Below, in pieces: positions 7,608-30,142 of a stretch of DNA of 64,000 nt. Both the position numbers and the translations under genes were made by a program. The stretch's first letter is position 1, and every line of letters starts with the position of its first letter. The notes beneath the pieces were generated by a model. That model saw only the letters and a program-made list of their open reading frames with translations. It was not told the origin of the DNA and ran no database searches. Source of the stretch: Candidatus Poribacteria bacterium (lineage in GTDB: Bacteria; Poribacteria; WGA-4E; WGA-3G); NCBI GenBank assembly GCA_965221425.1, contig OZ244889.1, positions 3,077,415 to 3,141,414 on the forward strand. Reading direction: 5' to 3'.

Positions 7608-7650
7608 CTCAGTAGGCGTGTTTGTAAATCTGCAATTCACGCCTACTTAC
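7608..7650 (+). terminator. stem-loop downstream of TBDT paralog 1 (stem GTAGGCGTG/CACGCCTAC)
   Basis: 9 bp perfect stem starting 15 nt after the stop codon, followed by T-rich 'ttactttgtaagtt'. Confidence 0.4.
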
Positions 7651-7705
7651 TTTGTAAGTTCTGTTGTAAACCAAGTATTTTCATAACATAAGGGGAGATT
7701 AAATT

Positions 7706-10309
7706 ATGAAAGTCACAATTATCATTAAACCGCTTCTGCTTGCGTTTTACATAGCATTAGCGGTTTCTATGGTCTTTTCACCTGTTGTTGAAGCAGATAA
7801 CCATGAAAGTGAAACTGAACCAAGCGAAGCAGCATCTGATGAAGAAGTCGTAGAGCTTGAAGGATTGGTTATTGTCGGTACGCGTGCAAAACCACGTTCC
7901 GTTCTTGAATCCACTGTACCGATTGATGTTGTGCTTAGCGATGACTTTGTTAAACAGGGTGGCGCAGATGTGCCCGACCTGTTAAGAAATTTGGTACCTT
8001 CTTACAATGTAAATGCACAGCCTATCGCTGACGCAGCAACTGTGGTGCGCCCTGCAAATCTTAGGGGGTTAGCACCTGATCACACGTTGTTGCTTGTCAA
8101 CGGCAAACGTCGGCACCGAGCATCTGTGATTACTTGGCTTGGCAACGGATTATCCGATGGTTCACAAGGTGCGGATCTCTCACCTATTCCTGCTATCGCG
8201 ATCAAACAGATGGAAGTCCTACGGGATGGGGCATCCGCGCAATACGGTTCCGATGCTATTGCTGGTGTGATGAACTTACAATTGAAAGATAGTTACAAAG
8301 GCGGCTCTTTAGTAATTAAACCCGGTATTTATCAAGCAGGTGATGGACTCACATATTCTGTCGCCGGTAATATTGGTTTGGGTAGAGAAGATATCTGGGC
8401 AAATCTCAGTTTGGAATATGGCAACGCAGATGAAACAGAGCGTTCCGTACAACGAGACGATGCCGCCGCTCTGTCCGCTGCAGGGAATAGCTATGTTGCT
8501 AATCCTGCTCAACCTTGGGGACACCCGATTATTAGAGATGACATCAAATTCTTTGCAAATTATGGGGTCGACATTGTTAATAACATTCAACTCTACGGTC
8601 ATGCCAACTACGCACAAAAACAGGTTGAAGGTGGATTCTATTTCCGAAATCCCAATACTCGACCTGCCGTATTTAGCAATGACGGTGGAGAAACCTTGCT
8701 TGTGGGACGTGTAGCTGGGGAGGGTGAAGTTCCTGTGGTCAAGATAACTGATAATGTCCCAGACCCAGAGGCTTTACAAATGGTCTTTGATGACCCCAAC
8801 CTTTTCACATTCCAAGAACTCTTCCCGGGTGGTTTTACGCCCCGCTTCGGAGCTGACACGCAAGACCTTTCTGGTCTTGTTGGACTGAGAGGAACAGTCG
8901 CTGAGGATTTGGGATGGGATTTAAGTGCCTCTTATGGACGGCACGCTTCTGATTTCTTCATCAAGAATACTGTTAACGCCTCCCTTGGACCAGATACACC
9001 TACCGAATTTGATCCGGGTGATTATATCCAAGCGGATACGAACATTAACCTTGACCTTACTTATCCACTGCACGACCTTGTCTTTCTCGCTGCAGGTGGT
9101 GAATATCGAACTGAGACTTTCGAAATTGTGCAGGGTCAGGAGGAGTCTTGGAAAATTGGTCCATTGGCAAGTCAAGGATTCAGTTCCGGTTCAAACGGAT
9201 TCCCCGGCTTCAGTGATATTGCACAAGGCGATTGGACACGTTCCAATTTTGCGGGATATTTGGAAACCGAATTGAAACCGATTGACCCATGGGTTGTTAG
9301 CGCCGCTATCCGAGCCGAAAACTTTGAGGATTTTGGTAGCACAATCAATTACAAAGTTGCAACGAGTTATGCTTTTAGCAACGATCTCAAGGAACTTCTT
9401 ACACTTGATCCCGGGGTTGACTTGAGAGTTCGTGGCAGTTATAGCACAGGTTTCCGGGCACCGACGCCAGGACAACAAAATGCCTTTAACGTCACAACGG
9501 AATTCGGTGAAAACAATACGTTGGTCAATAAAGGCACTATTCCTTCCACGCATGCTGCCGCAGAATTAGTAGGTGGTAAAGCACTTGAACCTGAAAAGTC
9601 AAAAAACTTTACTGTGGGAACGGTGATCAGTGATGATGTCGTTAGTGTTACAATAGATTATTTCAATATCAAGGTTGAGGATCGGTTGGCGCCCACTAAA
9701 GACTTCCAACGCGGCGAAGATATTACTGAGGAACAGATCCAGCAACTCGTTGATGAAGGCATTACAAGTGCCGGAAACTTGCAAGAATTCCGATTCTTTA
9801 CTAATGAATTTGAAACAAGTACCCAAGGTATTGATATTGTGCTGACAGCACCTGTCGCCAAAGGCGCTGTGAGTTTGGCATATAACTACACCAATACTGA
9901 GGTTACCAAACGCAACGCTGATATCCTGGACGATACACGTGTCCGGTTATTGGAAGAAGGACTACCCAAACACCGTGGGAACGTGACGTTAACACAAAAT
10001 GTTGTAGGTAATTTAGGGGTTTTGGGACGCGTCAATTACTACGGACCTTGGTATGAGTATGCTGTCGGTTCACAAATCTATGACGACGTGTTTTTAGTTG
10101 ATCTTGAATTTAACTATGCATTTGCGGATAACTTAGGTATCACCGTTGGTGTGAATAATGTTTTTAATGTTGAACCTAATAACGTCACATGGTCAGACCC
10201 GAATATTGAGAACTTTACCGGTTCAATCGTTGGAAGACCTTTTGGTGAATATAGCCCTTACGGATTTGGCGGAGCGTTTTGGTATACCAAAATCGGTTAC
10301 AATTTCTAA
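7706..10309 (+). CDS. TonB-dependent outer-membrane receptor (paralog 2, tandem duplicate of 4852-7593)
   Basis: Same architecture: signal, acidic linker, conserved plug blocks (ANLRGLAPDHTLLLVNGKRRHRA..VLRDGASAQYGSDAIAGVMNLQLKD), terminal 'GYNF'. Extensive collinear similarity to paralog 1 by eye. RBS GGGGAG. Confidence 0.8.
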   Translation: MKVTIIIKPLLLAFYIALAVSMVFSPVVEADNHESETEPSEAASDEEVVELEGLVIVGTRAKPRSVLESTVPIDVVLSDDFVKQGGADVPDLLRNLVPSYNVNAQPIADAATVVRPANLRGLAPDHTLLLVNGKRRHRASVITWLGNGLSDGSQGADLSPIPAIAIKQMEVLRDGASAQYGSDAIAGVMNLQLKDSYKGGSLVIKPGIYQAGDGLTYSVAGNIGLGREDIWANLSLEYGNADETERSVQRDDAAALSAAGNSYVANPAQPWGHPIIRDDIKFFANYGVDIVNNIQLYGHANYAQKQVEGGFYFRNPNTRPAVFSNDGGETLLVGRVAGEGEVPVVKITDNVPDPEALQMVFDDPNLFTFQELFPGGFTPRFGADTQDLSGLVGLRGTVAEDLGWDLSASYGRHASDFFIKNTVNASLGPDTPTEFDPGDYIQADTNINLDLTYPLHDLVFLAAGGEYRTETFEIVQGQEESWKIGPLASQGFSSGSNGFPGFSDIAQGDWTRSNFAGYLETELKPIDPWVVSAAIRAENFEDFGSTINYKVATSYAFSNDLKELLTLDPGVDLRVRGSYSTGFRAPTPGQQNAFNVTTEFGENNTLVNKGTIPSTHAAAELVGGKALEPEKSKNFTVGTVISDDVVSVTIDYFNIKVEDRLAPTKDFQRGEDITEEQIQQLVDEGITSAGNLQEFRFFTNEFETSTQGIDIVLTAPVAKGAVSLAYNYTNTEVTKRNADILDDTRVRLLEEGLPKHRGNVTLTQNVVGNLGVLGRVNYYGPWYEYAVGSQIYDDVFLVDLEFNYAFADNLGITVGVNNVFNVEPNNVTWSDPNIENFTGSIVGRPFGEYSPYGFGGAFWYTKIGYNF

Positions 10310-18681: not shown

Positions 18682-19941
18682 ATGGACAACGTTGCTACAG
18701 TTCGCTCTGGTGCTTGGCACGGAGATAACGAAGTGATGCTAACATTTCCAACCGGTTGGGAAGTGGAAATGTTGAAACCCAAGGACGCTCCTACACTTTC
18801 TGACGCACAAATTGAGCAGGCATTTGCAGAACCAATCGGGACAAAACGGATTTCTGAATTAGCAAAGGGGAAAAAGAGTGCTACCATCATCGTAGATGAC
18901 CTAAGCCGTCCGACCCCAGCATTTAAAGTAATTCCTTTTCTGTTGCGAGAACTCACGACAGCAGGGGTGCCAAAAGCAGAAATCAGATTTGTCGTTGGTG
19001 TCGGCGCACACCGTCCTATCTCCGAGGAAGAGATGGCAAAGAAAGTTGGAACTGACATCGCAGCAGAATATGAGATAACCAACCATAATTTCCTGAGCGG
19101 TGACCTTCGTGCCTTGGGACACCTTGAAAACGGCACACCTGTCTATATCAATCGGACTGTTGCAGATGCTGACTTCAAAATCTGCCTTGGTGGTATCTAT
19201 CCGCATAGCTCAGTCGGTTTTACGGGTGGTGCTAAACTTATTGTTCCCGGTACCGCAGGGTTTTCCACGATGTATTATTTCCATACCTTTCCACAGGGAC
19301 GTGGCCCCGCAGTGATTGAAGGGCAGAGCGATGAACCAGATCGTCGCGACACCATTGAAATGGCAGCGGCCGTGCTTGGGCTCGACGCTATCGCCAATGT
19401 TGTCCTTAATAGTCAACGTGAAATCTGTGGATTATTTGTAGGGGATTTCATAAAAGCACATCGTAAAGGCGCACATTTTGCGATGGATACTTATAAAACG
19501 AAAATCTCGGAAAAAACCCGCACAGAGAGTGATCTTGTTATAATTAACTGTTATCCACTTGATGCTGATGCTATTCAACTTGATAAAGCACTTGCCGCTT
19601 TTTCTTATTTTGAAGACGCTTGGACAATAGCACTTTATCCCGCAACCGATGGAACCTGCTTCCACGGATTGTTTGACAGACTTGATTATCAAAAGTATCT
19701 CCAGCAGAAAGTAGAGCACGTACCCACTAATCCATCACCCGCACCAAAACTTGGAAGACGATCTCAACTACATGTTTGGTCTGAGCATTTTGAAAGAGAT
19801 GATTTCTACAAAGAGTATCCATCCTCGCTTCTTTTCCGCGACTTAGATCAGTTAATTCGATTGTTGATACAGAAACTTCCTAAACGCGCCAAAGTTGCTA
19901 TTTTGCCTGTAGCAGGAATTCAAGTATTAACACCACACTAA
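18682..19941 (+). CDS. LarA-family (DUF2088) nickel-pincer-cofactor-dependent racemase/epimerase homolog, paralog 1
   Basis: IIVDDLSRPTPAFKVIPFLLREL..IRFVVGVGAHRPISEEE matches the LarA N-terminal domain pattern. 'GGAK' lysine precedes LIVPG, the position of the cofactor-tethering Lys in LarA (from memory, unverified). Confidence 0.7.
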   Translation: MDNVATVRSGAWHGDNEVMLTFPTGWEVEMLKPKDAPTLSDAQIEQAFAEPIGTKRISELAKGKKSATIIVDDLSRPTPAFKVIPFLLRELTTAGVPKAEIRFVVGVGAHRPISEEEMAKKVGTDIAAEYEITNHNFLSGDLRALGHLENGTPVYINRTVADADFKICLGGIYPHSSVGFTGGAKLIVPGTAGFSTMYYFHTFPQGRGPAVIEGQSDEPDRRDTIEMAAAVLGLDAIANVVLNSQREICGLFVGDFIKAHRKGAHFAMDTYKTKISEKTRTESDLVIINCYPLDADAIQLDKALAAFSYFEDAWTIALYPATDGTCFHGLFDRLDYQKYLQQKVEHVPTNPSPAPKLGRRSQLHVWSEHFERDDFYKEYPSSLLFRDLDQLIRLLIQKLPKRAKVAILPVAGIQVLTPH

Positions 19942-20248: not shown

Positions 20249-20313
20249 AATAGGGAATCAGCGCGCAACATCAGTTGTTCGTTCAAATGGGTGTAAGAAA
20301 ATGGAGATCAGAC

Positions 20314-21573
20314 ATGAACAACACTGCAACGATCCACTCCCGTGCTTGGTATGGTGATGAGGAGTTAACGTTGAATTTTCCAAAGGGTTGGGAAGTAGAA
20401 ATGCTGGGACCAAAGGACGCACCAGCACTTTCTGACAAGCAGATGGAACGCGCGTTCGCTGAGCCAATTGGGACGCCACGCATTGCTGAACTTGCAAAAG
20501 GCAAAAAGAGTGCTGCCATTGTTGTAGATGACCTTAGCCGTCCTACCCCTGCAGCCGAAGTTATCCCGTTCCTACTACGTGAACTCATCTCAGCAGGTGT
20601 TCCAAAATCAGAAACCCGATTTGTCGTAGGCGGTGGGTCGCACCGACCTCTTACAGATGAAGAAATAGCAAAGAAAATTGGGGCTGACATTGCAGCAGAA
20701 TATGAGGTAACAAGTCATGATTTTATGAGTGGTGACCTGCGTGGATATGGAAGTCTTGAAAATGGCATGCCTATCTATATCAATAGAGTTGTTGCAGATG
20801 CGGATTTCAAAATCTGTTTGGGTGGCATCTATCCGCACGGTGCTGTCGGTTTTGGAGGCGGAGCAAAATTGATTGTCCCCGGTGTTTCTGGGTTCGCAAC
20901 GATGTTCTATTTTCATACCTTTTCACCGAGCCGTGGACATGCGGTCATTGAAAGAAAAGACAGCACCCCTGACCATCGAGATTTTGCGGAAGAAATTGCA
21001 GCTGTCATCGGTCTCGATGTTATCGCTAATGTTGTGCTAAATTCTCGACGCGAGATTTGTGGGTTGTTTGTTGGCGACTTTGTACAGGCACATCGCGCAG
21101 GGGCACATTTCGCTTTGGCAACATACAGTACAGAAATACCGATGCAATCCCGAAAAGAGACTGATCTGGTTGTGCTAAATTGTTATCCGCTTGATAGTGA
21201 CCCTATCCAAACAGGAAAAGCGTTGTGGGCATCCAGTTATTTTGAGAAGACATATAAAATGGCACTAAATCCTGCCAGCGATGGTATCTGCTACCATGGG
21301 TTATTTGATCAAATTGATTATAACCGTTTTCTTGAACAAAGAGCAGAGAAGATTCCGCCTGAACTCCCCGAACCTAAACTTGGAAATATTGATCAACTGC
21401 ACGTCTGGTCCGAAAATTTTCTCGTAGACGATTTTTATAAAAAACACCCAAATGCCCTCCTTTTCCGCGACTTGGAACAGCTTCTCCAACTGTTCTCTGA
21501 AAAACTTCCAGCAAAAGCGAAAGTCGCTGTCCTACCTTCAGCAGGAATTCAGGTATTAGCAAAGAACAAATAA
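20314..21573 (+). CDS. LarA-family (DUF2088) racemase/epimerase homolog, paralog 2
   Basis: Start moved to MNNTATIHSRAW (GGAG RBS 8 nt upstream) to match paralog 1. AIVVDDLSRPTPAAEVIPFLLREL..GGGSHRPLTDEE..GGGAKLIVPG. Confidence 0.7.
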   Translation: MNNTATIHSRAWYGDEELTLNFPKGWEVEMLGPKDAPALSDKQMERAFAEPIGTPRIAELAKGKKSAAIVVDDLSRPTPAAEVIPFLLRELISAGVPKSETRFVVGGGSHRPLTDEEIAKKIGADIAAEYEVTSHDFMSGDLRGYGSLENGMPIYINRVVADADFKICLGGIYPHGAVGFGGGAKLIVPGVSGFATMFYFHTFSPSRGHAVIERKDSTPDHRDFAEEIAAVIGLDVIANVVLNSRREICGLFVGDFVQAHRAGAHFALATYSTEIPMQSRKETDLVVLNCYPLDSDPIQTGKALWASSYFEKTYKMALNPASDGICYHGLFDQIDYNRFLEQRAEKIPPELPEPKLGNIDQLHVWSENFLVDDFYKKHPNALLFRDLEQLLQLFSEKLPAKAKVAVLPSAGIQVLAKNK

Positions 21574-21585
21574 CAAAGGACTCTT

Positions 21586-22128
21586 ATGCAATCTTCCTTC
21601 AGAAACTACCTACAGCGTGTAAATACCCTGCTTGGTAAATTTGAAATCGGTGTGTTATGTCTGATTGTGGCAATGCTGGTAGGACTGGCAGTCCTCAAAA
21701 TCGTCGCGCGTTACATATTGCCTCATTTAGGAATCCAATGGGTTTTGACATGGAGTGCCCCGATGTTGCAGCATTTAACTCTCTGGTTGTGTTTTTTTGG
21801 GGCAGCACTCGCCTCCTGTGAAAGACGACACATTAGTATAGACATTCTCAACCGAATTTTACCGAAACGTGTCATGCGTTTTAGTTCCTATATTATTGAT
21901 ATTCTCAGTCTGATTATCGTGAGTATTTTAGCCTATTTCGGTTTTGAGTTTCTTATGGAAGAACAGGAGAGTCCCGCAACACTGATAGGACCTATTCCGC
22001 TTTGGTGGGCAAAAACGATTATCCCGATAGGGTTTGTCCTTATCGGGATTCATTTGGTGCTGCAGATTTTTATCAATTTGACAGAACGTGAAAACGCTCA
22101 AGATAATATTGAAGGAGACTTGGAATAA
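21586..22128 (+). CDS. TRAP transporter small permease (DctQ-like), 4 TM
   Basis: 180 aa, four TM helices with DctQ family pattern (KIVARYILPHLG..W..ELT.WLCFFGAALASCERRHISIDIL). 12 bp after LarA-2 stop. Confidence 0.65.
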   Translation: MQSSFRNYLQRVNTLLGKFEIGVLCLIVAMLVGLAVLKIVARYILPHLGIQWVLTWSAPMLQHLTLWLCFFGAALASCERRHISIDILNRILPKRVMRFSSYIIDILSLIIVSILAYFGFEFLMEEQESPATLIGPIPLWWAKTIIPIGFVLIGIHLVLQIFINLTERENAQDNIEGDLE

Positions 22129-23435
22129 TGGGATTACTCATTGGCATCGGATTAGCAGCCTTCGCACTTCTTGGCGGCGCGCTGTTTGTTTTGCTCGGTG
22201 GGGCATCAATTATCGGATACGCCACTTATGCCGTATCAGAAGAAGAACCACTTTCAATGCTCCAAGCGATTCTAATTGAATTCAATAGTCTTACCGATAA
22301 TCCGTCTATTCTGATTATTCCGCTCTTTACGTTCGCTGGATATGTTATTGCCGAAGGAAAAGCGCCACAACGATTGGTTGGATTTGCGCGTGCAAGTGTC
22401 GGTTGGCTGCCGGGTGGTATCGCTATTGTAGTGCTTGGGACTTGTGCTTTTTTTACAACATTCACAGGGGCTTCTGGTATAACAATTGTAGCACTCGGCG
22501 GTTTGCTCTATCCTATCCTTAAACGTAGTTACAGTGAGCAATTCTCCCTCGGTTTGGTCACAGCTTCCGGCAGCATTGGGCTCCTGTTTCCACCAAGCAT
22601 CCCTCTCATCCTTTATGCCATTGTTGCTCAAGTCAGGATTGATACCATGTTCTTTGCTGGGATTATTCCGGGAATACTTATTCTCACCATCCTTAGCCTC
22701 TACTGCAGCGGATGGAGCGTTTTCAAGCGGACAGAGACGATCCAATTTAGTTTGTCAGATTTCGCACGCACACTCTGGGATGCTAAGTGGGAACTACTCT
22801 TACCATTTCTTGTATTAGGAGGCATCCTCTCAGGTAAGGTTCTGATTGATGAAGTTGCTGCATTAACAGTCATATATGTCTGTGTCGTAGAAATCTGTAT
22901 TCACCGATCAATTTCTGTAAAAAAGTTACCATATCTTGTCAAAGAGAGCATGTTGCTGGTCGGGGCAATCCTAATTATCCTCGGTCTCGCCTTGGGATTA
23001 AAAAGCTATTTGGTCACACTTGAAGTTCCCCAAAACGTCGTGGAGTGGATTCAATCCATAACTTCAAACCGAGTTATTACACTCATTGGTCTTAATATAT
23101 TCCTACTTATAGTTGGGTGTTTAGTGGACATCTTTTCCGCTATTGTTATTGTTGTCCCACTGCTTTTACCCATCGCTGAAGAACTCGGTATTAATAAAGC
23201 ACACCTCGGTATTATTATATTAACAAATCTTGAAATCGGTTACCTCACACCGCCAGTAGGAATGAATTTGTTTATTTCAAGCATGAAATTTGATAAATCG
23301 GTTGTCCTACTCTACAGGTCTGTTTTATTGTTTATCGGTTTGTTGTTAATAGCTTTAATACTTGTAACTTATATTCCAGAGTTGAGTCTATGGCTGCCGG
23401 AGGTACTTGGGAAAACGACAGAGTCGTTGTTTTGA
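22128..23435 (+). CDS. dctM: TRAP transporter large permease (DctM-like)
   Basis: 435 aa polytopic membrane protein. Start ATG overlaps the DctQ stop (ATAATGG), the typical QM coupling. Confidence 0.8.
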   Translation: MGLLIGIGLAAFALLGGALFVLLGGASIIGYATYAVSEEEPLSMLQAILIEFNSLTDNPSILIIPLFTFAGYVIAEGKAPQRLVGFARASVGWLPGGIAIVVLGTCAFFTTFTGASGITIVALGGLLYPILKRSYSEQFSLGLVTASGSIGLLFPPSIPLILYAIVAQVRIDTMFFAGIIPGILILTILSLYCSGWSVFKRTETIQFSLSDFARTLWDAKWELLLPFLVLGGILSGKVLIDEVAALTVIYVCVVEICIHRSISVKKLPYLVKESMLLVGAILIILGLALGLKSYLVTLEVPQNVVEWIQSITSNRVITLIGLNIFLLIVGCLVDIFSAIVIVVPLLLPIAEELGINKAHLGIIILTNLEIGYLTPPVGMNLFISSMKFDKSVVLLYRSVLLFIGLLLIALILVTYIPELSLWLPEVLGKTTESLF

Positions 23436-23588: not shown

Positions 23589-24626
23589 ATGAAACAAGTT
23601 TGTTGGTCAAATAAGATTAGCACAAAAGTTGTGCTGTGCATAGGATGCCTATTCGCTCTCGGATCCCTGCTTGTTGGATGTGCAGATACAACGACAAAAG
23701 ATGGATTTAAGGTTGCGATGCTGCTTCCAGCCGATATTACCGACGCAGGGTGGAATGCTTTAGCTTATGAAGGGCTTCAAGCAATCGAAAAGGAACTTGG
23801 GGCAACAGTTAAATATGTTGTGAGTGGCACACCTACCGAACAAGAACAACACTTCCGTTTTTACGCGGAAAAAGGGTACGACCTCGTCTTTGGGCACGGT
23901 TATGAATTTCAAGGCCCCGCAAAAGCGGTAGCCTCCGATTTTCCTGACACAATTTTTATTACGTCTTCGGGAGGCACTATTACTGACAATATTTCCCCAG
24001 TGAATTTTCGCGTTGAGCAACCCGCCTACCTTTTAGGTATTATGGCAGGCATGATGACACAAGAAAATAAACTTGGCACTATTGGCGGCGATGAAATTCC
24101 TTCTGTCAAGAGTACTTTTATCGCTTTTGAAGCTGGCGCGAAAAGTGTTAATCCTGATATAGAGGTCCGCAAGGTATATGTGGGCAATTGGGAAGATGCT
24201 GTGAAAGGCAAGGAACTCTCATTAGCACTTATTAATGAAGGTGTTGACTTTCTGTTCCCAAATGCAGATGCGGCAGGACTTGGCGCTTTTCACGCTGCGG
24301 AAAACGCCCAAGCAGAGGGAAAAACTGTATACACGTTCGGTGCAAATCGAGACAAAAGTGAAATTTCCGCAACAACAGTGCTTGCAAACGCTGTGATTAC
24401 CCCGAAAGCCTTTGTTAAGATTGCTAAAGTCGTTAAAGAAGGTAAATTCAAAAAACAGATCTACACATTCAACATGCTGACAGATCAAGCAATCACGCTA
24501 ACTTATAACCCTAAGCTGAAAGATAAAATACCGCAAGAGGTGCTTGATGCCGTTGAAGCGGCAAAAGCCAAAATCCTTTCTGGTGAACTCGAGGTTCCGC
24601 AAATTGATTTCACTGAAGAGGAATGA
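23589..24626 (+). CDS. BMP-family (PnrA/Med-like) substrate-binding lipoprotein
   Basis: Lipoprotein signal LLVGC. BMP-family blocks (FKVAMLLPADITDAGWNALAYEGL..YDLVFGHGYEFQGPAKAVASDFPDTIFITSSGG). AGGAGA RBS. Confidence 0.75.
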   Translation: MKQVCWSNKISTKVVLCIGCLFALGSLLVGCADTTTKDGFKVAMLLPADITDAGWNALAYEGLQAIEKELGATVKYVVSGTPTEQEQHFRFYAEKGYDLVFGHGYEFQGPAKAVASDFPDTIFITSSGGTITDNISPVNFRVEQPAYLLGIMAGMMTQENKLGTIGGDEIPSVKSTFIAFEAGAKSVNPDIEVRKVYVGNWEDAVKGKELSLALINEGVDFLFPNADAAGLGAFHAAENAQAEGKTVYTFGANRDKSEISATTVLANAVITPKAFVKIAKVVKEGKFKKQIYTFNMLTDQAITLTYNPKLKDKIPQEVLDAVEAAKAKILSGELEVPQIDFTEEE

Positions 24627-24680
24627 TATTTGACTTATTCTGCACAATCTGTAACCCCCGGTAAGATGGAAGCACGGACT

Positions 24681-27377
24681 ATGGCGAAAAAAATGCAAAT
24701 TGATGACGTTGAAGTCACCTTTTCCGAGGGAGAAACTGTGCTTGAAGTTGCACAACGGCATCAAAAAGATATTCCGACTCTTTGTTACGATCCACGCCTG
24801 GAACCGTTTGGTGGATGCCGCTTGTGCATCGTTGAATTAGAAGGTGCACGTAATCCTGTTGCATCTTGTACAACAAAAGCCACCGCTGGGATGGTTATCC
24901 GTACTGCAACCGATACAATAGAAACGTATCGGAAGACACTGCTTGAGATGGTGATTGGTGAAAATAGAGAGATAGATGTCCATCCATTACGCGGCTACGC
25001 TGCCAGCGAGTTGATGAGTCTTCGTGACAGGTACGAAATCGAGAATACAAATATAATAGGGGCAAAATCCGGCACCAGCAAAGCCGATGATAATCCTTTT
25101 ATACTCAGAGATTATGAGCTCTGTATCTCTTGTTACCGTTGTGTAAGGGTGTGTGCTGAACAAGAGGGTGATCATGCTATCAATGTGATGAACCGCGGGT
25201 TTCACACACAGATCACAACAGAATTTGATGGTCTTCTCAAAGACTCCGCTTGTACTTTTTGTGGACAATGTATCCAGACCTGTCCGACAGGTGCACTTGC
25301 CGACAAAAAAGCGCTCCGCGCTGTTGATGAGGTTACTGACGCTGCACTCAACAAAACCCGTACCATTTGCCCTTATTGCGGCGTTGGTTGTTCTGTAGAT
25401 GTGCTAACAAATGACGAAAAAATTGTTGGTATCCATCCTGCTATGGACGGTCCTGCTAATCAAGGCGCCCTCTGTGTTAAAGGACAGTTCGCTTACGACT
25501 TCGTTCAACATCCAGATCGATTGAAAACACCGCTTGTCCGTGGTGAAGATGGTGAACTCCACGAAGCCACGTGGGAAGATGCGCTTGATAAAGCTGCTGA
25601 AGGTTTTAGGAACGTCCATGCCGGGTATGGCAGATACAGCATCTACGGTATCGCTTCTGGGCGTGCGCCGAGTGAAGCTGCGTATCTGATGCAGAAGTTT
25701 ATCCGTGCAGGTTTTGGCACAAACTATATTGACAATTGCAGCCGTGCCTGACACGCTCCGACTGTTGCCGGTCTGGCAGCAACAATCGGACGTGGGGCGA
25801 TGTCTAATCCGCTCGTTGATATGCAGAAACCTGACGTTATTTTCTGCATCGGAACAAATATGACAGAATGCCATCCGGTTGCAGCAACTGGATTGAAAAA
25901 GGCAATTGCACGTGGAGCCAAACTCATTGTGGCAGACCCAAGACGCATCGGGTTAGCAGAGATGTCCCATCTCTATCTGCCGCTTCGTGTCGGATCAGAT
26001 ACTGCGCTACTGCTTGGAATGGCGCACGTTATTGCTCGTGAAGGGTTAATTGATGAAGAATTCATCGAAAATCGCACAACAGGATTTGATGATTTCTTTG
26101 AACATATCAGTCAATGGACACCAGAATGGGCAGAATCTATCACAGGTGTGCCAGCAAAGGACATTGAAACGGCGGCAATGTGGTACGGCACTGCAAATAA
26201 AAGTGCTATCTACTATACGCTTGGTATTACAGAACATATCTGCGGTGTGGAGAATGTTCAGAGCTTGTGCAACCTTGCACTGATGACAGGCAATATCGGA
26301 CGCGAGGGAACAGGTATTAACCCGATGCGTGGGCAAAATAACATCCAAGGCGCGGGAGATAGCGGTGCGCTACCTAACAACTATCCAGGTTTTCAATCTG
26401 TCACTGATCCCAAACATCAGACAAAATTTAAAGAGGTATACGGTAGAGAGATTGACCTTGAGAAGGGCATCACGAAGGTTACTGCCTTGGAACTTTGCGG
26501 TGATAGTATCCATGCAATGCTCATTGATGGTGAAAATACATTGCTGTCCGACCCTGACCGTGAACATTGTGAGCATGCACTTCGTTCTTTAGAGCATCTC
26601 GTAGTAGTTGACATCTTCCTGACCGAAACCGCAGAACTTGCCGATATAGTGCTGCCCGCAACAGCCTGGGGCGAAACGGATGGGGTTTGCACTAATACAG
26701 AACGCCGCGTCCAACGAATGCGTGCTGCTGCCCCGCCTCCCGGTGAGGCAAAACCTGATTGGTGGATTATCTGTCAAATTGCAAAGCGACTCGGATTCGA
26801 AGGGTTTGATTTTGACGCGCCAAAACCGATTTTCAACGAACTTTGCCACCTTTCGCCTATCTACGCAGGATTGGATTGGGAACGCATTGAAAAAAGTGAA
26901 TATCAGTGGCCTGTTCCACATAAAGAACACCCTGGCACACCGCGCTTACACGAAGATACATTCGTGAATGGAAAAGGAATCTTTTCCAACGTTCACTACC
27001 GAGACCCTGCTGAGACAATTAGTGATGAGTTCCCTGTATGGCTAACAACAGGAAGGCGTTTGCAATCCTATCACACACGGACTCAAACGGGTAGAGCGCA
27101 GGGAATTGATTATCTGTTACCCGAAGAATCCCTTGAAGTAAATCCTGCCGACCTCCAAAAATGGAAATTGATGGATGGTGAATGGTGTAAAATGAGCAGT
27201 GCACGGGGGAGTATCAATATTAAAGTCAAAGCAACAAACCGATCACCGCGAGGCACCGTTTTTGCCAGTTTCAGTTTCGCCGATGTGCCTGTCAATCTTT
27301 TAACAGGTTCAGGCTACGATCCCATTACGCACACCGCTGAGTTGAAGGTGTGTCCAGTGAAATTAGAACCACTATAA
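24681..27377 (+). CDS. selenocysteine-containing formate dehydrogenase catalytic subunit (FdhF/FdsA-like: 2Fe-2S + 4Fe-4S N-terminal domains + Mo-bisPGD domain); in-frame TGA at 25749-25751 read as Sec
   Basis: ORFs 24630-25751 and 25800-27377 are in the same frame. Joined through the TGA they read ..NYIDNCSRA-U-HAPTVAGLAATIGRGAMSNP.., collinear with E. coli FdhF ..NCARV-U-HGPSVAGL..GNGAMSN. Downstream regions also match FdhF (RGQNNIQGAGDSGALPNNYPGFQ; IVLPATAWGETDGVCTNTERR). 5' start is ambiguous (ATG at 24666, 24681 or 24693). Confidence 0.85.
25752..25790 (+). promoter_or_regulatory. bacterial SECIS-like hairpin directing Sec insertion at UGA 25749-25751
   Basis: UGA + 11 nt, then the stem 25763-25769/25775-25781 with apical loop GGUCU. 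This has the same spacing and the same GGUC(U) loop as the E. coli fdhF SECIS (..GGUUGCAGGUCUGCACC..). Confidence 0.6.
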
Positions 27378-27387
27378 GGAGAACAAA

Positions 27388-27684
27388 ATGAAATGGAAAA
27401 CACGTTGGTTAGAAGAAAATGAAGATGTTGATACATTAAAAGCGCAATTACAATCAGAGGGATTCGACCCATATCAGTGGTCTGGTCGTCCAGGTGGTGC
27501 ATATCTTGATTATATTCATACTCAGGATGAAGTTGTTTGTGTGTTGTCTGGTACTGCAGAAGCAAAAGTTGCCGATGCGGAAGGCACTGTGGAAAAAGGG
27601 GACCGAATTGATGTTCCTGCAAATACTTATCATTCTTTAACGGTGACAAGTGATGAACCGCTGGTTGTTTTGACGGGTATGTGA
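27388..27684 (+). CDS. small cupin-domain protein
   Basis: 98 aa. Cupin-like beta-barrel motifs (VVCVLSGTAEAKV..GDRIDVPANTYHSL). 10 nt downstream of the FDH stop; possible co-transcription. Confidence 0.45.
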   Translation: MKWKTRWLEENEDVDTLKAQLQSEGFDPYQWSGRPGGAYLDYIHTQDEVVCVLSGTAEAKVADAEGTVEKGDRIDVPANTYHSLTVTSDEPLVVLTGM

Positions 27685-28612: not shown

Positions 28613-28654
28613 TGCCTACTTTTGCACTTCACTATAAATAGAAAGGAAACATAT

Positions 28655-30142
28655 ATGAACATTACTGTCGAAATTGGCGATTTTCGTCAATCAGAAACCG
28701 ATGCTGTGCTTATCCCTGTGCTTGAAGATGACTTCCACAATGAGTTAATCTTAGCCGCTGACGCTGCTTTAGAGGGACGTATCCAAGCGTTTTTGAATCT
28801 TGGTGACTTCAAAGGTAAACCGAAGACAACCAGTGTGCTTTATACAAACGGTGCTATAACTGCCCCACGTATCATCTTGGTAGGTCTCGGTGTATATGCA
28901 GAACTCAATGCGGAAAAAGTACGCCAAGTCGCTGGACATACCGCTCGTCAGGCACGCGATATGGGACTGAAATCTATCACTGTTCCCATTCCCCCCGAAA
29001 CACAGGACGATTGGGCACAAGCAGCCGTTGAGGCAAGTCTTCTCTCACTCTATGAATTTAAACAACACAAAACACAAAAAGACGATAATGAAGACAAAGA
29101 TAAAACACTTGAATCTATGTCTCTTCTCGTAGGAAGTAAGGCAGAAAAATCGTCCCTGGAACGTATTGTTGAAAGAGGACAGACGATTGCTAAAGGTACT
29201 ATCCTTGCTCGCGATCTCAGCAACCAACCCGGGAACCACCTTACACCGACCCTACTTGCTGAAAAGGCTGAGGAGGTAGCAGAAACGGTGGGACTCAACT
29301 GCACAGTTTTTGACAAACCGACACTTGAGGAAAAAGGTTTCCGCACACTGTTAGCCGTTGCGCAAGGCAGTGCCGAAGATCCGCGCTTCATCATTTTGGA
29401 ATATACCCCTGAAGGAGAAGGACACGATACCGTAGCACTCGTTGGAAAGGGGATTACCTTTGACACGGGTGGCATTTCACTTAAATCTGGAAGCGGTATG
29501 CACGAAATGAAACATGACATGTCTGGTGCTGCAGCGGTTTTAGGCGCGATGCAGGTAATCGGACACCTGAAACCCAACGTACGCGTTATCGGTATAATTG
29601 CGACAACAGAAAACATGCCCGGATCAACCGCAATTAAACCGGGAGACGTTGTCACCTCCTACGGTGGAAAAACAATTGAAATCCTCAATACCGATGCCGA
29701 GGGGAGGCTAATTTTGGCTGATGCACTCGGATGGACTGCCCAGTATGAACCGCAAGGTGTTATTGATTTAGCTACGCTTACCGGTGCTGTAATTACCTGT
29801 CTCGGACATATCGCCGCAGGAGCAATGGGAACTGATGACACCTTAATGGAAAAAATAAAGAAGGCAGCTGAAAAAACGCATGAACGGGTCTGGGAATTAC
29901 CGCTTTGGGACGATTATGATGAAGGGGTAAAAAGTAAAGTTGCCGATGTGCAGAACATTGGGGATGGCACTGCTGGCACACTTGCAGGTGGCGCATTTCT
30001 GAAGAAATTTGCTGAAGGATACCCATGGGTTCACCTTGATATTGCAGGTACTGCTTGGGGAGTGAAAAATTCTACCTATATCCCAGAAGGAGCGTCTGGC
30101 TACGGTGTTCGGTTGTTGGTGCAATTGGTTGAAGATTGGTAG
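28655..30142 (+). CDS. pepA: leucyl aminopeptidase (M17)
   Basis: NTDAEGRLILADAL and VALVGKGITFDTGG signatures. GAAAGGAAA RBS before MNITVEI. Confidence 0.9.
   Translation: MNITVEIGDFRQSETDAVLIPVLEDDFHNELILAADAALEGRIQAFLNLGDFKGKPKTTSVLYTNGAITAPRIILVGLGVYAELNAEKVRQVAGHTARQARDMGLKSITVPIPPETQDDWAQAAVEASLLSLYEFKQHKTQKDDNEDKDKTLESMSLLVGSKAEKSSLERIVERGQTIAKGTILARDLSNQPGNHLTPTLLAEKAEEVAETVGLNCTVFDKPTLEEKGFRTLLAVAQGSAEDPRFIILEYTPEGEGHDTVALVGKGITFDTGGISLKSGSGMHEMKHDMSGAAAVLGAMQVIGHLKPNVRVIGIIATTENMPGSTAIKPGDVVTSYGGKTIEILNTDAEGRLILADALGWTAQYEPQGVIDLATLTGAVITCLGHIAAGAMGTDDTLMEKIKKAAEKTHERVWELPLWDDYDEGVKSKVADVQNIGDGTAGTLAGGAFLKKFAEGYPWVHLDIAGTAWGVKNSTYIPEGASGYGVRLLVQLVEDW

What the first reader, a model, noticed from the sequence alone, without database searches (positions are those of the whole stretch)
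24630..27377. In-frame UGA at 25749-25751 is a selenocysteine codon in an FdhF-type formate dehydrogenase; the ORF track splits one ~900 aa gene in two
ORFs 24630-25751 and 25800-27377 are in the same frame. The peptide across the TGA reads NCSRA-U-HAPTVAGL, collinear with the E. coli FdhF Sec140 motif (NCARV-U-HGPSVAGL). Eleven nt after the UGA sits a hairpin (stem 25763-69/25775-81, apical GGUCU). It reproduces the spacing and apical GGUC(U) loop of the E. coli fdhF SECIS. The enzyme has the 2Fe-2S/4Fe-4S N-terminal module of FdsA/NuoG-like FdhF. No beta or gamma partner is adjacent. This implies the genome encodes selA, selB, selD and tRNA-Sec elsewhere. It also shows automated annotation would mis-call two genes or a pseudogene here.
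Basis: partly seen in the sequence, partly recalled or inferred. Interest (0 to 1): 0.7.

Follow-up and report, generated by a model that had tools for sequence, protein, structure and literature searches.

The report
Selenocysteine formate dehydrogenase gene, mis-split
The in-frame TGA is a genuine selenocysteine codon, with a conserved recoding hairpin, inside one 898-codon formate dehydrogenase gene of a sponge-associated Poribacteria bacterium; this is a well-known kind of gene that public annotation routinely cuts in two.

Summary
Window 24681-27377 (+) is one gene for a formate dehydrogenase alpha subunit, 898 codons long. The true start is ATG 24681, not TTG 24630. TGA 25749-25751 aligns exactly with Sec140 of E. 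coli FdhF. The same codon is TGA in 79 of 80 orthologous loci from five phyla and TGC (Cys) in one. Both halves are intact and 69-96% identical everywhere.

The hairpin 25763-25781 (7 bp, loop GGUCU, 11 nt after UGA) shows compensatory changes at synonymous sites. Among 224 conserved four-fold-degenerate sites in the gene, the only four nearly frozen third positions lie in it. It matches Rfam's bacterial SECIS_3 model end to end (53.9 bits, E 5e-12), but below the curated cut-off of 63.

Corrections:
- The hairpin is SECIS_3-like, not the enterobacterial fdhF type.
- The longer lower stem is not conserved.
- The enzyme is closest to the NAD-linked Fdh1A/FdsA type.

Seventeen relatives have a NuoEF-like beta gene directly upstream; this window has none. 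No sel genes lie in the window, but published tables report SelA, SelB and SelD in three Poribacteria genomes. This is an ordinary member of the most widespread bacterial selenoprotein family, so interest is low.

The parts
24681..27377 (+). Complete fdhA gene: formate dehydrogenase alpha subunit, 898 codons plus stop, with Sec at codon 357
   Evidence: Translation. Start set by homologue N-termini such as MTHKMEIDG. TIGR01591 scores 757 bits against a cut-off of 666. PDB hit 7vw6_A has E 8.6e-202 over residues 6-897.
24693..24911 (+). N-terminal [2Fe-2S] ferredoxin-like domain (aa 5-77)
   Evidence: Pfam Fer2_4, E 3.9e-17.
25095..25298 (+). Two-[4Fe-4S] ferredoxin domain, NuoG/Nqo3-like (aa 139-206)
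   Evidence: Pfam Fer4_Nqo3, E 8.6e-12. The stretch between the 2Fe-2S domain and this one has no Cys, as in M. extorquens Fdh1A (7vw6) and unlike R. capsulatus FdsA.
25353..25511 (+). [4Fe-4S] domain of the catalytic module (aa 225-277), with the motif CPYCGVGC...CVKG
   Evidence: Pfam Molybdop_Fe4S4, E 4.5e-20; sequence.
25518..26789 (+). Molybdopterin (Mo/W-bisPGD) oxidoreductase domain (aa 280-703). It spans the TGA, so the two ORFs cannot be separate functional units.
   Evidence: Pfam PF00384, E 2.3e-74, one continuous stretch covering 280-703.
25749..25751 (+). UGA selenocysteine codon (Sec357)
   Evidence: Aligned to X140 (Sec140) of E. coli FdhF 1aa6. TGA in 79 of 80 orthologous loci and TGC in L069.
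25752..25754 (+). Catalytic His358 (equivalent of FdhF His141)
   Evidence: Alignment to 1aa6; invariant in all 80 loci.
25763..25781 (+). SECIS minihelix: stem 25763-25769 / 25775-25781 (7 bp including U•G), apical loop GGUCU at 25770-25774
   Evidence: Fold -10.3 kcal/mol, z -2.85. 99% paired across 69 distinct sequences. Pair 15-33: CG 38, GC 25, UG 2, UA 1. Pair 18-30: UA 64, CG 5. 0 of 500 shuffles reach this. It contains the only 4 of 224 four-fold sites with major-allele frequency >=0.94.
25746..25804 (+). Full-length match to Rfam RF01989 (SECIS_3), below the gathering score
   Evidence: 53.9 bits against GA 63, E 4.6e-12, model positions 1-59 of 59.
26328..26330 (+). Catalytic Arg550 (equivalent of FdhF Arg333) in the motif NPMRGQNNIQGA
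   Evidence: Ungapped alignment to the invariant RGQNNVQGA of four FDH structures. The offset to 1aa6 (query 1 = residue 263) puts this Arg at residue 333. Invariant as R177 of the C-terminal ORF alignment.
27039..27356 (+). Molybdopterin dinucleotide-binding domain (aa 787-892)
   Evidence: Pfam PF01568, E 2.4e-22.

Best explanation
Window 24681-27377 encodes one 898-residue cytoplasmic Mo- or W-bisPGD formate dehydrogenase alpha subunit from a Poribacteria bacterium.

During translation, UGA 25749-25751 is read as selenocysteine rather than stop. The 19-nt hairpin starting 11 nt downstream is a bacterial SECIS. It presents G23/U24 in its apical loop at the same distance from the UGA as in E. 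coli fdhF. It would tether SelB·GTP·Sec-tRNA(Sec) to the ribosome so that Sec357 is inserted. Sec357 then ligates the Mo or W atom, with His358 and Arg550 completing the active site. Electrons from formate pass through the [4Fe-4S] chain to the N-terminal [2Fe-2S] module.

In relatives, a NuoE+NuoF-like flavoprotein beta subunit encoded directly upstream links this chain to NAD(H), as in the M. extorquens Fdh1AB enzyme. In this lineage that gene is not adjacent, so the partner must be encoded elsewhere or be different.

Shown: the codon's positional homology, conservation of the TGA, coding selection across the inter-ORF gap, RNA-level selection on the hairpin, and family membership. Inferred: actual Sec insertion, the presence of selABCD in this genome, the metal, and the electron acceptor.
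For: 1. The TGA aligns to Sec140 of 1aa6 with His next to it. The Arg333 equivalent and the CxxCxxxC...CxK motif are present.
2. TIGR01591 scores above its curated cut-off. There are full-length matches to solved FDH alpha subunits.
3. 79 of 80 orthologous loci from Poribacteria, Gemmatimonadota, Latescibacterota, Verrucomicrobiota and Planctomycetota carry TGA, and one carries TGC. Both halves are intact at 69-96% identity.
4. In the 48 nt between the TGA and the next ATG, 18 sites vary. Fourteen are third positions, two are synonymous first positions (Leu, Arg), and two are non-synonymous, in four sequences. The gap is therefore translated.
5. The hairpin shows compensatory changes at synonymous sites, is 99% paired, and 0 of 500 shuffles match it. 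It holds the only near-frozen four-fold sites among 224 in the gene.
6. Rfam SECIS_3 matches end to end with E 4.6e-12. Orthologues score 48-57 bits.
7. The spacing and loop are identical to the verified E. coli fdhF SECIS.
8. SelA, SelB and SelD COGs are reported in three Poribacteria genomes, including WGA-3G, the source of locus L033, which has the same TGA.
9. FdhA is the commonest bacterial selenoprotein (PMC1794560).
Against: - No selA, selB, selD or tRNA-Sec lies in the 64-kb window or in the flanks of the related loci: tRNA-Sec was sought in 60 of the 80 loci and sel-gene motifs in all 80. The Sec machinery of this particular genome is therefore unverified.
- The hairpin scores below Rfam's gathering threshold (53.9 vs 63). 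It also lacks the bulged U of the E. coli element.
- Four orthologues have G instead of U at loop position 24, which is critical in E. coli according to my memory of the SelB-SECIS literature.
- No beta subunit gene was found in the window.
- There are no experimental data (proteomics, 75Se labelling) and no read-level data.
Confidence: 0.92

Rival explanations
1. UGA is recoded, but as cysteine rather than selenocysteine. A SelC*-like tRNA(ReC) charged with Cys would be delivered through the same SECIS/SelB route.
For: PMC13582414 reports that tRNA(ReC)-like tRNAs decode UGA as Cys when a SECIS lies downstream, and that they occur in about 13-17% of the genomes surveyed there. One orthologue (L069) works with a genomic Cys codon.
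Against: FdhA is the archetypal Sec enzyme. SelA, SelB and SelD, the Sec-specific synthesis genes, are reported in Poribacteria. No tRNA of any such kind was seen in the window or in the 60 related loci scanned, although the rest of the genome was not available.
Confidence: 0.04
2. A genuinely split enzyme. Translation stops at the UGA and restarts at AUG 25800, giving a 356-aa Fe-S protein and a 525-aa catalytic protein that assemble.
For: Gene callers produce exactly these two ORFs in every public assembly. The AUG at 25800 is conserved.
Against: - The split would delete the metal-ligand residue, the catalytic His and 16 conserved residues.
- Those 16 codons evolve almost only synonymously, so they are translated.
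- The Pfam Molybdopterin domain runs continuously across the site.
- The conserved Met is simply the GAMSN motif, which is also present in E. coli FdhF.
- The Cys orthologue L069 is a single 905-aa ORF.
Confidence: 0.02
3. A pseudogene or a sequencing/assembly error (TGC to TGA) in this window.
For: A single-base change from TGC or TGT gives TGA, and one orthologue has TGC.
Against: The TGA is present in 79 of 80 independently assembled species-level genomes, including long-read complete chromosomes. There are no other disruptions, and both halves are 69-96% identical. The hairpin is under RNA-level selection.
Confidence: 0.01
4. The organism uses an alternative genetic code in which UGA is a sense codon (Trp or Gly).
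For: Such codes exist in some uncultured bacterial lineages (from general knowledge).
Against: Eight of 47 long ORFs in the window end in TGA, including the Bmp gene immediately upstream. No other gene in the window needs an internal TGA. The site aligns to Sec or Cys in every solved FDH.
Confidence: 0.005

Closest known systems
E. coli formate dehydrogenase H (FdhF, PDB 1aa6/1fdo) and its fdhF SECIS (Rfam RF01988, SECIS_2)
   Same: The Sec codon is at the homologous position (Sec140), followed by the catalytic His, and the Arg333 equivalent is present. The hairpin starts 11 nt after the UGA, with G22-G23-U24-C25 at identical distances from the UGA. The loop is encoded by the same conserved Gly-Leu.
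   Different: FdhF has no N-terminal 2Fe-2S / 2x[4Fe-4S] module (match 224-898 only). The window hairpin has a 5-nt loop and a U17•G31 pair with one extra 3' nucleotide, instead of the bulged U. It scores 13.9 bits on SECIS_2 (GA 70), whereas E. coli scores 87.1.
Rfam RF01989 (SECIS_3), a bacterial FDH-type SECIS
   Same: The match is end to end over all 59 model positions, E 4.6e-12. The consensus UGACaCG..CC.AC.GU.GC..GUCU.GC is shared.
   Different: The score of 53.9 is below the curated 63-bit threshold. The whole clade scores 48-57 bits, because the base of the upper helix uses a different register (covariation-supported 15-33 and 16-32) from the model's bulged-U geometry.
Methylobacterium extorquens NAD-dependent tungsten formate dehydrogenase Fdh1AB (PDB 7vw6/7e5z)
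   Same: It is the best solved match to the alpha subunit over its full length (E 8.6e-202). Both lack the His/Cys3 cluster motif between the 2Fe-2S and dicluster domains. The beta subunit encoded next to fdhA in 17 relatives matches Fdh1B over its whole NuoE+NuoF length.
   Different: Fdh1A has Cys at the metal-ligand position (HCTRLCHASSVAAL), whereas this protein has Sec. In the window the beta gene is not adjacent. The metal (Mo or W) is unknown here.
Rhodobacter capsulatus / Cupriavidus-type FdsABG(D) NAD-dependent Mo-FDH (PDB 6tg9)
   Same: The overall alpha architecture and catalytic residues are the same.
   Different: FdsA has Cys, not Sec. It carries an extra His-ligated [4Fe-4S] motif (HPLDCLTC...C) that is absent here. 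It uses separate beta and gamma subunits rather than a fused NuoEF-like beta.

Membership tests
Formate dehydrogenase alpha subunit (NCBIfam TIGR01591; Mo/W-bisPGD enzymes) | Profile score above the curated cut-off | tested here: met
   757.3 bits against a cut-off of 666.25, covering profile positions 1-671 of 672.
Formate dehydrogenase alpha subunit (NCBIfam TIGR01591; Mo/W-bisPGD enzymes) | Sec or Cys metal ligand followed by the catalytic His, plus the catalytic Arg (FdhF Sec140/His141/Arg333) | tested here: met
   TGA aligns to X140 and His to 141. The Arg in NPMRGQNN falls at residue 333 by offset and is invariant.
Formate dehydrogenase alpha subunit (NCBIfam TIGR01591; Mo/W-bisPGD enzymes) | Proximal [4Fe-4S] motif CxxCxxxC...C-x-K at the start of the catalytic module | tested here: met
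   CPYCGVGC...CVKG; Pfam Molybdop_Fe4S4, E 4.5e-20.
Formate dehydrogenase alpha subunit (NCBIfam TIGR01591; Mo/W-bisPGD enzymes) | Formate oxidation / CO2 reduction activity | not testable with these tools
   Needs an enzyme assay.
Bacterial SECIS element | Stem-loop in the coding sequence immediately 3' of the UGA, with G in the first or second apical-loop position | tested here: met
   A 7-bp helix begins 11 nt after the UGA, with loop GGUCU. The G criterion is as stated in PMC13582414.
Bacterial SECIS element | Structure conserved in orthologues beyond what coding requires | tested here: met
   Compensatory pairs at 15-33 and 18-30, 99% paired. The only 4 of 224 four-fold sites that are near-frozen lie in the helix and loop.
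Bacterial SECIS element | Reaches the curated score of an Rfam SECIS family | tested here: not met
   SECIS_3: 53.9 bits against 63 (E 4.6e-12). SECIS_2: 13.9 against 70. It is statistically significant but sub-threshold.
Bacterial SECIS element | Binds SelB and directs Sec insertion | not testable with these tools
   Needs a binding or reporter assay.
E. coli fdhF-type SECIS (SECIS_2) | Bulged U17 and GGUC tetraloop on a 17-nt minihelix | tested here: not met
   Here U17 pairs with G31 (UG in 66 of 69), the loop is 5 nt, and the helix has 7 bp. Only the spacing and the GGUC sequence are shared.
Sec-decoding trait (selA, selB, selC, selD in the same genome) | Presence of the four genes | not testable with these tools
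   Absent from the 64-kb window and from the ±10-kb flanks of the related loci: tRNA-Sec was scanned in 60 of the 80 loci, sel-gene motifs in all 80. The rest of the genome is not available. COG1921, COG3276 and COG0709 are reported in Poribacteria bin44, bin70 and WGA-3G (PMC5649159 Table S4).
NAD-dependent FDH of the Fdh1AB type | Alpha subunit with NuoG-like N-terminal module lacking the His/Cys3 cluster | tested here: met
NAD-dependent FDH of the Fdh1AB type | NuoE+NuoF-like FMN/NAD-binding beta subunit encoded with the alpha | tested here: not met
   There is no homologue in the window (best tblastn E 0.11). One lies directly upstream in 17 of 80 related loci. It can be unlinked in related genomes (L082, L084, L085).

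The most novel reading that the evidence does not exclude
In the main sponge-associated Poribacteria lineage, the Sec-containing FDH alpha subunit has been separated from its NuoEF-like NAD(H)-binding beta gene. It now sits in a conserved Bmp-fdhA-cupin-pepA cluster. It might therefore work with a different, undescribed redox partner or as a stand-alone enzyme. In addition, its SECIS is a distinct structural variant (no bulged U, 5-nt loop, U24G tolerated in four species), which implies a SelB with altered recognition.
Probability: 0.12. Interest if true: 0.4.

Novelty: new member of a known kind. Interest (0 to 1): 0.2.

Why it matters
The value is mainly practical. Every one of the 120 closest entries in a 5.8-billion-protein database is a truncated fragment of this enzyme, named 'molybdopterin-dependent oxidoreductase' or 'YjgC'. 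The hairpin scores just under Rfam's cut-off across the whole clade. Metabolic reconstructions of sponge symbionts can therefore miss or mis-score a functional formate dehydrogenase and selenium dependence. Biologically, the finding adds Poribacteria, and close copies in four other phyla, to the hosts of the commonest bacterial selenoprotein. It is consistent with the reported enrichment of selA and selB in sponge symbionts. It does not change what is known about Sec decoding or FDH chemistry.

Tried and rejected
- Gathering-threshold Rfam scans of the window and of six loci found no SECIS. Only the permissive scan revealed the sub-threshold SECIS_3 match.
- The extended lower stem and the shifted register of the RNAfold MFE structure were rejected. 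Their variable positions do not stay paired: 5-45 in 23 of 69, 9-42 in 16 of 69, 12-39 in 42 of 69, and alternative 15-36 in 6 of 69.
- The idea that the Cys-free stretch between the N-terminal Fe-S domains is a peculiar cluster loss was rejected. M. extorquens Fdh1A has the same gap.
- Searches for tRNA-Sec (window plus 60 loci), for SelD/SelB sequence motifs and for other in-frame TGA genes in the window found nothing.
It was rerun with the C-terminal ORF.
- I tried to show that a genome with the window-type gene order encodes the beta subunit elsewhere.
- The window's own C-terminal ORF is not on record in the assembly index.
Full report
**Observation.** The window sequence shows ORF 24630-25751 and ORF 25800-27377 in one frame. 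They are separated by TGA at 25749-25751 and 48 further in-frame nucleotides. The peptide reads NYIDNCSRA*HAPTVAGLAATIGRGAMSN. Eleven nucleotides after the TGA, 25763-25769 pairs with 25775-25781 around the loop GGUCU. Folded alone, this segment gives -10.3 kcal/mol (z = -2.85, 1 of 200 shuffles as good). Folding 25749-25800 gives a longer stem-loop (-22.3 kcal/mol, z = -2.34). All coordinates in the finding are correct.

**What the protein is.** The joined translation carries Fer2_4, Fer4_Nqo3, Molybdop_Fe4S4, Molybdopterin (one continuous match across the TGA) and Molydop_binding. It scores 757 bits on NCBIfam TIGR01591 'formate dehydrogenase subunit alpha' (cut-off 666).

The best solved relatives are:
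- the M. extorquens tungsten NAD-dependent FDH alpha (7vw6/7e5z, E 8.6e-202 over residues 6-897);
- R. capsulatus FdsA;
- the HDCR FdhF;
- E. coli FdhF, for the catalytic part only.

HMMER places the TGA on residue 140 of 1aa6 (X = Sec140), with the catalytic His next. The Arg of NPMRGQNNIQGA falls on FdhF Arg333 by offset and is invariant. The CPYCGVGC...CVKG cluster motif is present. Homologue N-termini (MTHKMEIDG and similar; one lacks the second Met) put the start at ATG 24681. This gives 898 codons with Sec at 357.

**Is the TGA real and read through?** All 120 closest proteins in the 5.8-billion-sequence collection are 505-546 aa C-terminal fragments (75-96% identity, 56-60% coverage), so the break is universal in this family. 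I fetched 80 orthologous loci from species-representative genomes. About 70 are Poribacteria, and the rest are Latescibacterota, Gemmatimonadota, Verrucomicrobiota (Limisphaerales) and Planctomycetota.

- The codon is TGA in 79 loci and TGC in one, L069.
- Both halves are intact everywhere. The N-terminal part is 69-92% identical and the C-terminal part 77-96%.
- In the 48 nt between the TGA and the next ATG, 18 sites vary. Fourteen are third positions, two are synonymous first positions (Leu, Arg), and two are non-synonymous, in four sequences. That stretch is therefore translated.
- TGA is used as an ordinary stop by 8 of 47 long ORFs in the window, including the gene just upstream. No other gene needs an internal TGA.

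Sequencing error, pseudogene, split enzyme and alternative genetic code are thereby excluded or made very unlikely.

**Is the hairpin a SECIS?** I number from the U of UGA as position 1. The helix is 15-21/27-33 and the loop is G22 G23 U24 C25 U26.

Across 69 distinct sequences:
- Pair 15-33 is C-G in 38, G-C in 25, U-G in 2 and U-A in 1, and is unpaired in 3.
- Pair 18-30 is U-A in 64 and C-G in 5.
- These are third positions of Thr, Ala, Val and Ala codons, so the double changes are synonymous and compensatory.
- The helix is 99% paired against 16-68% for slid registers, and 0 of 500 shuffles reach the observed covariation.

The gene contains 224 four-fold-degenerate sites at conserved residues, with a median major-allele frequency of 0.44. 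Only four sites reach 0.94 or more. All four are nt 18, 21, 24 and 30 of this hairpin, and nt 21 is the only invariant such site in the gene. The RNA is therefore under selection beyond coding and codon bias.

The lower helix of the window's own MFE fold fails at its variable positions and is not conserved.

**Comparison with known SECIS models.**
- A permissive Rfam scan gives an end-to-end match to RF01989 (SECIS_3) at 25746-25804: 53.9 bits, E 4.6e-12, against a gathering score of 63.
- Orthologues score 48-57 bits, all sub-threshold.
- I verified the E. coli fdhF SECIS sequence against more than 5,400 genomes. It scores 87 bits on SECIS_2 and 36 on SECIS_3, whereas the window scores 14 on SECIS_2.

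The element is nevertheless of the SECIS_3 kind. It has a U17•G31 pair and a 5-nt loop instead of the bulged U and tetraloop.

**Sec machinery.** No tRNA-Sec or sel-gene signature lies in the window, and none was found in the ±10-kb flanks of the related loci (tRNA-Sec scanned in 60 of the 80, sel-gene motifs in all 80). The rest of the genome is not available. Published COG tables list SelA, SelB and SelD in all three Poribacteria genomes analysed by Slaby et al. 2017: bin44, bin70 and WGA-3G (PMC5649159 Table S4). WGA-3G is the source of locus L033, which has the same TGA and hairpin. A 2026 survey lists Poribacteria among phyla with Sec-type [NiFeSe] hydrogenases. It also notes that tRNA(ReC) can decode UGA as Cys through a SECIS (PMC13582414). 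I keep that as a minor rival.

**Partners and context.** In about 50 Poribacteria loci the order Bmp - fdhA - cupin - PepA is conserved, as in the window. In 17 loci a 556-588 aa protein is encoded directly upstream of fdhA, often with FdhD nearby. These loci are deeper Poribacteria plus nearly all the other phyla. The protein carries 2Fe-2S_thioredx, Complex1_51K, SLBB and NADH_4Fe-4S domains. Its only full-length solved match is the beta subunit of the M. extorquens tungsten FDH.

The alpha subunit also shares with M. extorquens Fdh1A the absence of the His/Cys3 cluster motif that R. capsulatus FdsA has. The enzyme is thus an Fdh1AB-type, presumably NAD-linked, FDH with Sec in place of Cys.

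The window has no beta homologue. Stand-alone beta genes exist in related genomes (L082, L084, L085). I could not tie one to a genome with the window-type arrangement. The electron acceptor in this lineage is therefore inferred, not shown.

**Distribution.** The exhaustive representative search shows the clade collapsing into one 50%-identity cluster, whose representative is itself a 533-aa fragment. The next relatives are at most 45% identical. They are a mixture of ~900-aa forms, ~540-aa fragments and ~1370-aa fusions. Identity of 77-79% between phyla, against 45% or less to anything else, suggests horizontal spread of this Sec-FDH. The window is about 84% identical in DNA to the nearest species representatives, so it is a distinct Poribacteria species.

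**Verdict.** The finding is correct and well supported, but it is ordinary. FdhA is the most widespread bacterial selenoprotein, found in 67 of 75 Sec-using organisms (PMC1794560). Sec-to-Cys conversions with remnant hairpins, as in L069, are also described there. The useful outcomes are:
- an annotation correction: one 898-codon selenoprotein gene at 24681-27377;
- a note that Rfam's SECIS_3 threshold misses this clade;
- the open question of the redox partner in sponge Poribacteria.

Noticed in passing
window 23589-24626, 27388-27684, 28622-30142: The gene order Bmp-family binding protein, fdhA, 98-aa cupin (starting 11 nt after the fdhA stop), then leucyl aminopeptidase PepA is conserved in about 50 Poribacteria loci. 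The small cupin may be co-transcribed with fdhA. Its role is unknown.
   Followed up: partly
L052, L054, L059, L060, L067-L074, L076-L080 (e.g. L054:5947-7632): A fused NuoE+NuoF-like beta subunit gene lies directly upstream of fdhA in 17 loci, often with fdhD nearby, but not in the window lineage. In L054 a PRiA4_ORF3-like gene (7619-8707) is inserted between beta and alpha.
   Followed up: partly
L082:6001-7677, L084:8001-9677, L085:2554-4236: In related genomes, stand-alone beta genes (79-81% identical to the L054 beta) sit in a conserved AP_endonuc_2 - beta - AMP-binding context with no fdhA nearby. I could not establish whether these genomes are the ones with the window-type alpha.
   Followed up: partly
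L069:9950-10004: This is the single orthologue with TGC (Cys) instead of TGA. It keeps the full hairpin (loop GGUUU, -12.5 kcal/mol) and is called as one 905-aa ORF. It looks like a recent Sec-to-Cys conversion with a remnant SECIS.
   Followed up: partly
L031, L042, L049, L050 (loop position 24, about locus 9973): Four Poribacteria species have GGG instead of GGU, giving the loop GGGCU, while keeping TGA. U24 is reported as critical for SelB binding in E. coli (from memory). This suggests relaxed or different recognition by their SelB.
   Followed up: no
L071-L080 versus window 24681-27377: The alpha subunit is 77-79% identical between Poribacteria and Gemmatimonadota, Planctomycetota, Verrucomicrobiota and Latescibacterota. 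The next relatives in a 1.8-billion-protein library are at most 45% identical. This pattern suggests horizontal transfer of the Sec-FDH, with its beta gene, between phyla.
   Followed up: no
window 18682-19941 and 20275-21573; 21586-23435: Two tandem LarA-like (lactate racemase N-terminal domain) paralogues are followed by TRAP transporter DctQ and DctM genes upstream of the Bmp-fdhA cluster. This block is conserved in only about 11 loci.
   Followed up: no
window 25746-25804 and orthologues (e.g. L001, L054, L073: 9947-10005): The whole clade scores 48-57 bits on Rfam SECIS_3, under the 63-bit gathering score. Standard Rfam annotation therefore reports no SECIS for any of these genes.
   Followed up: yes
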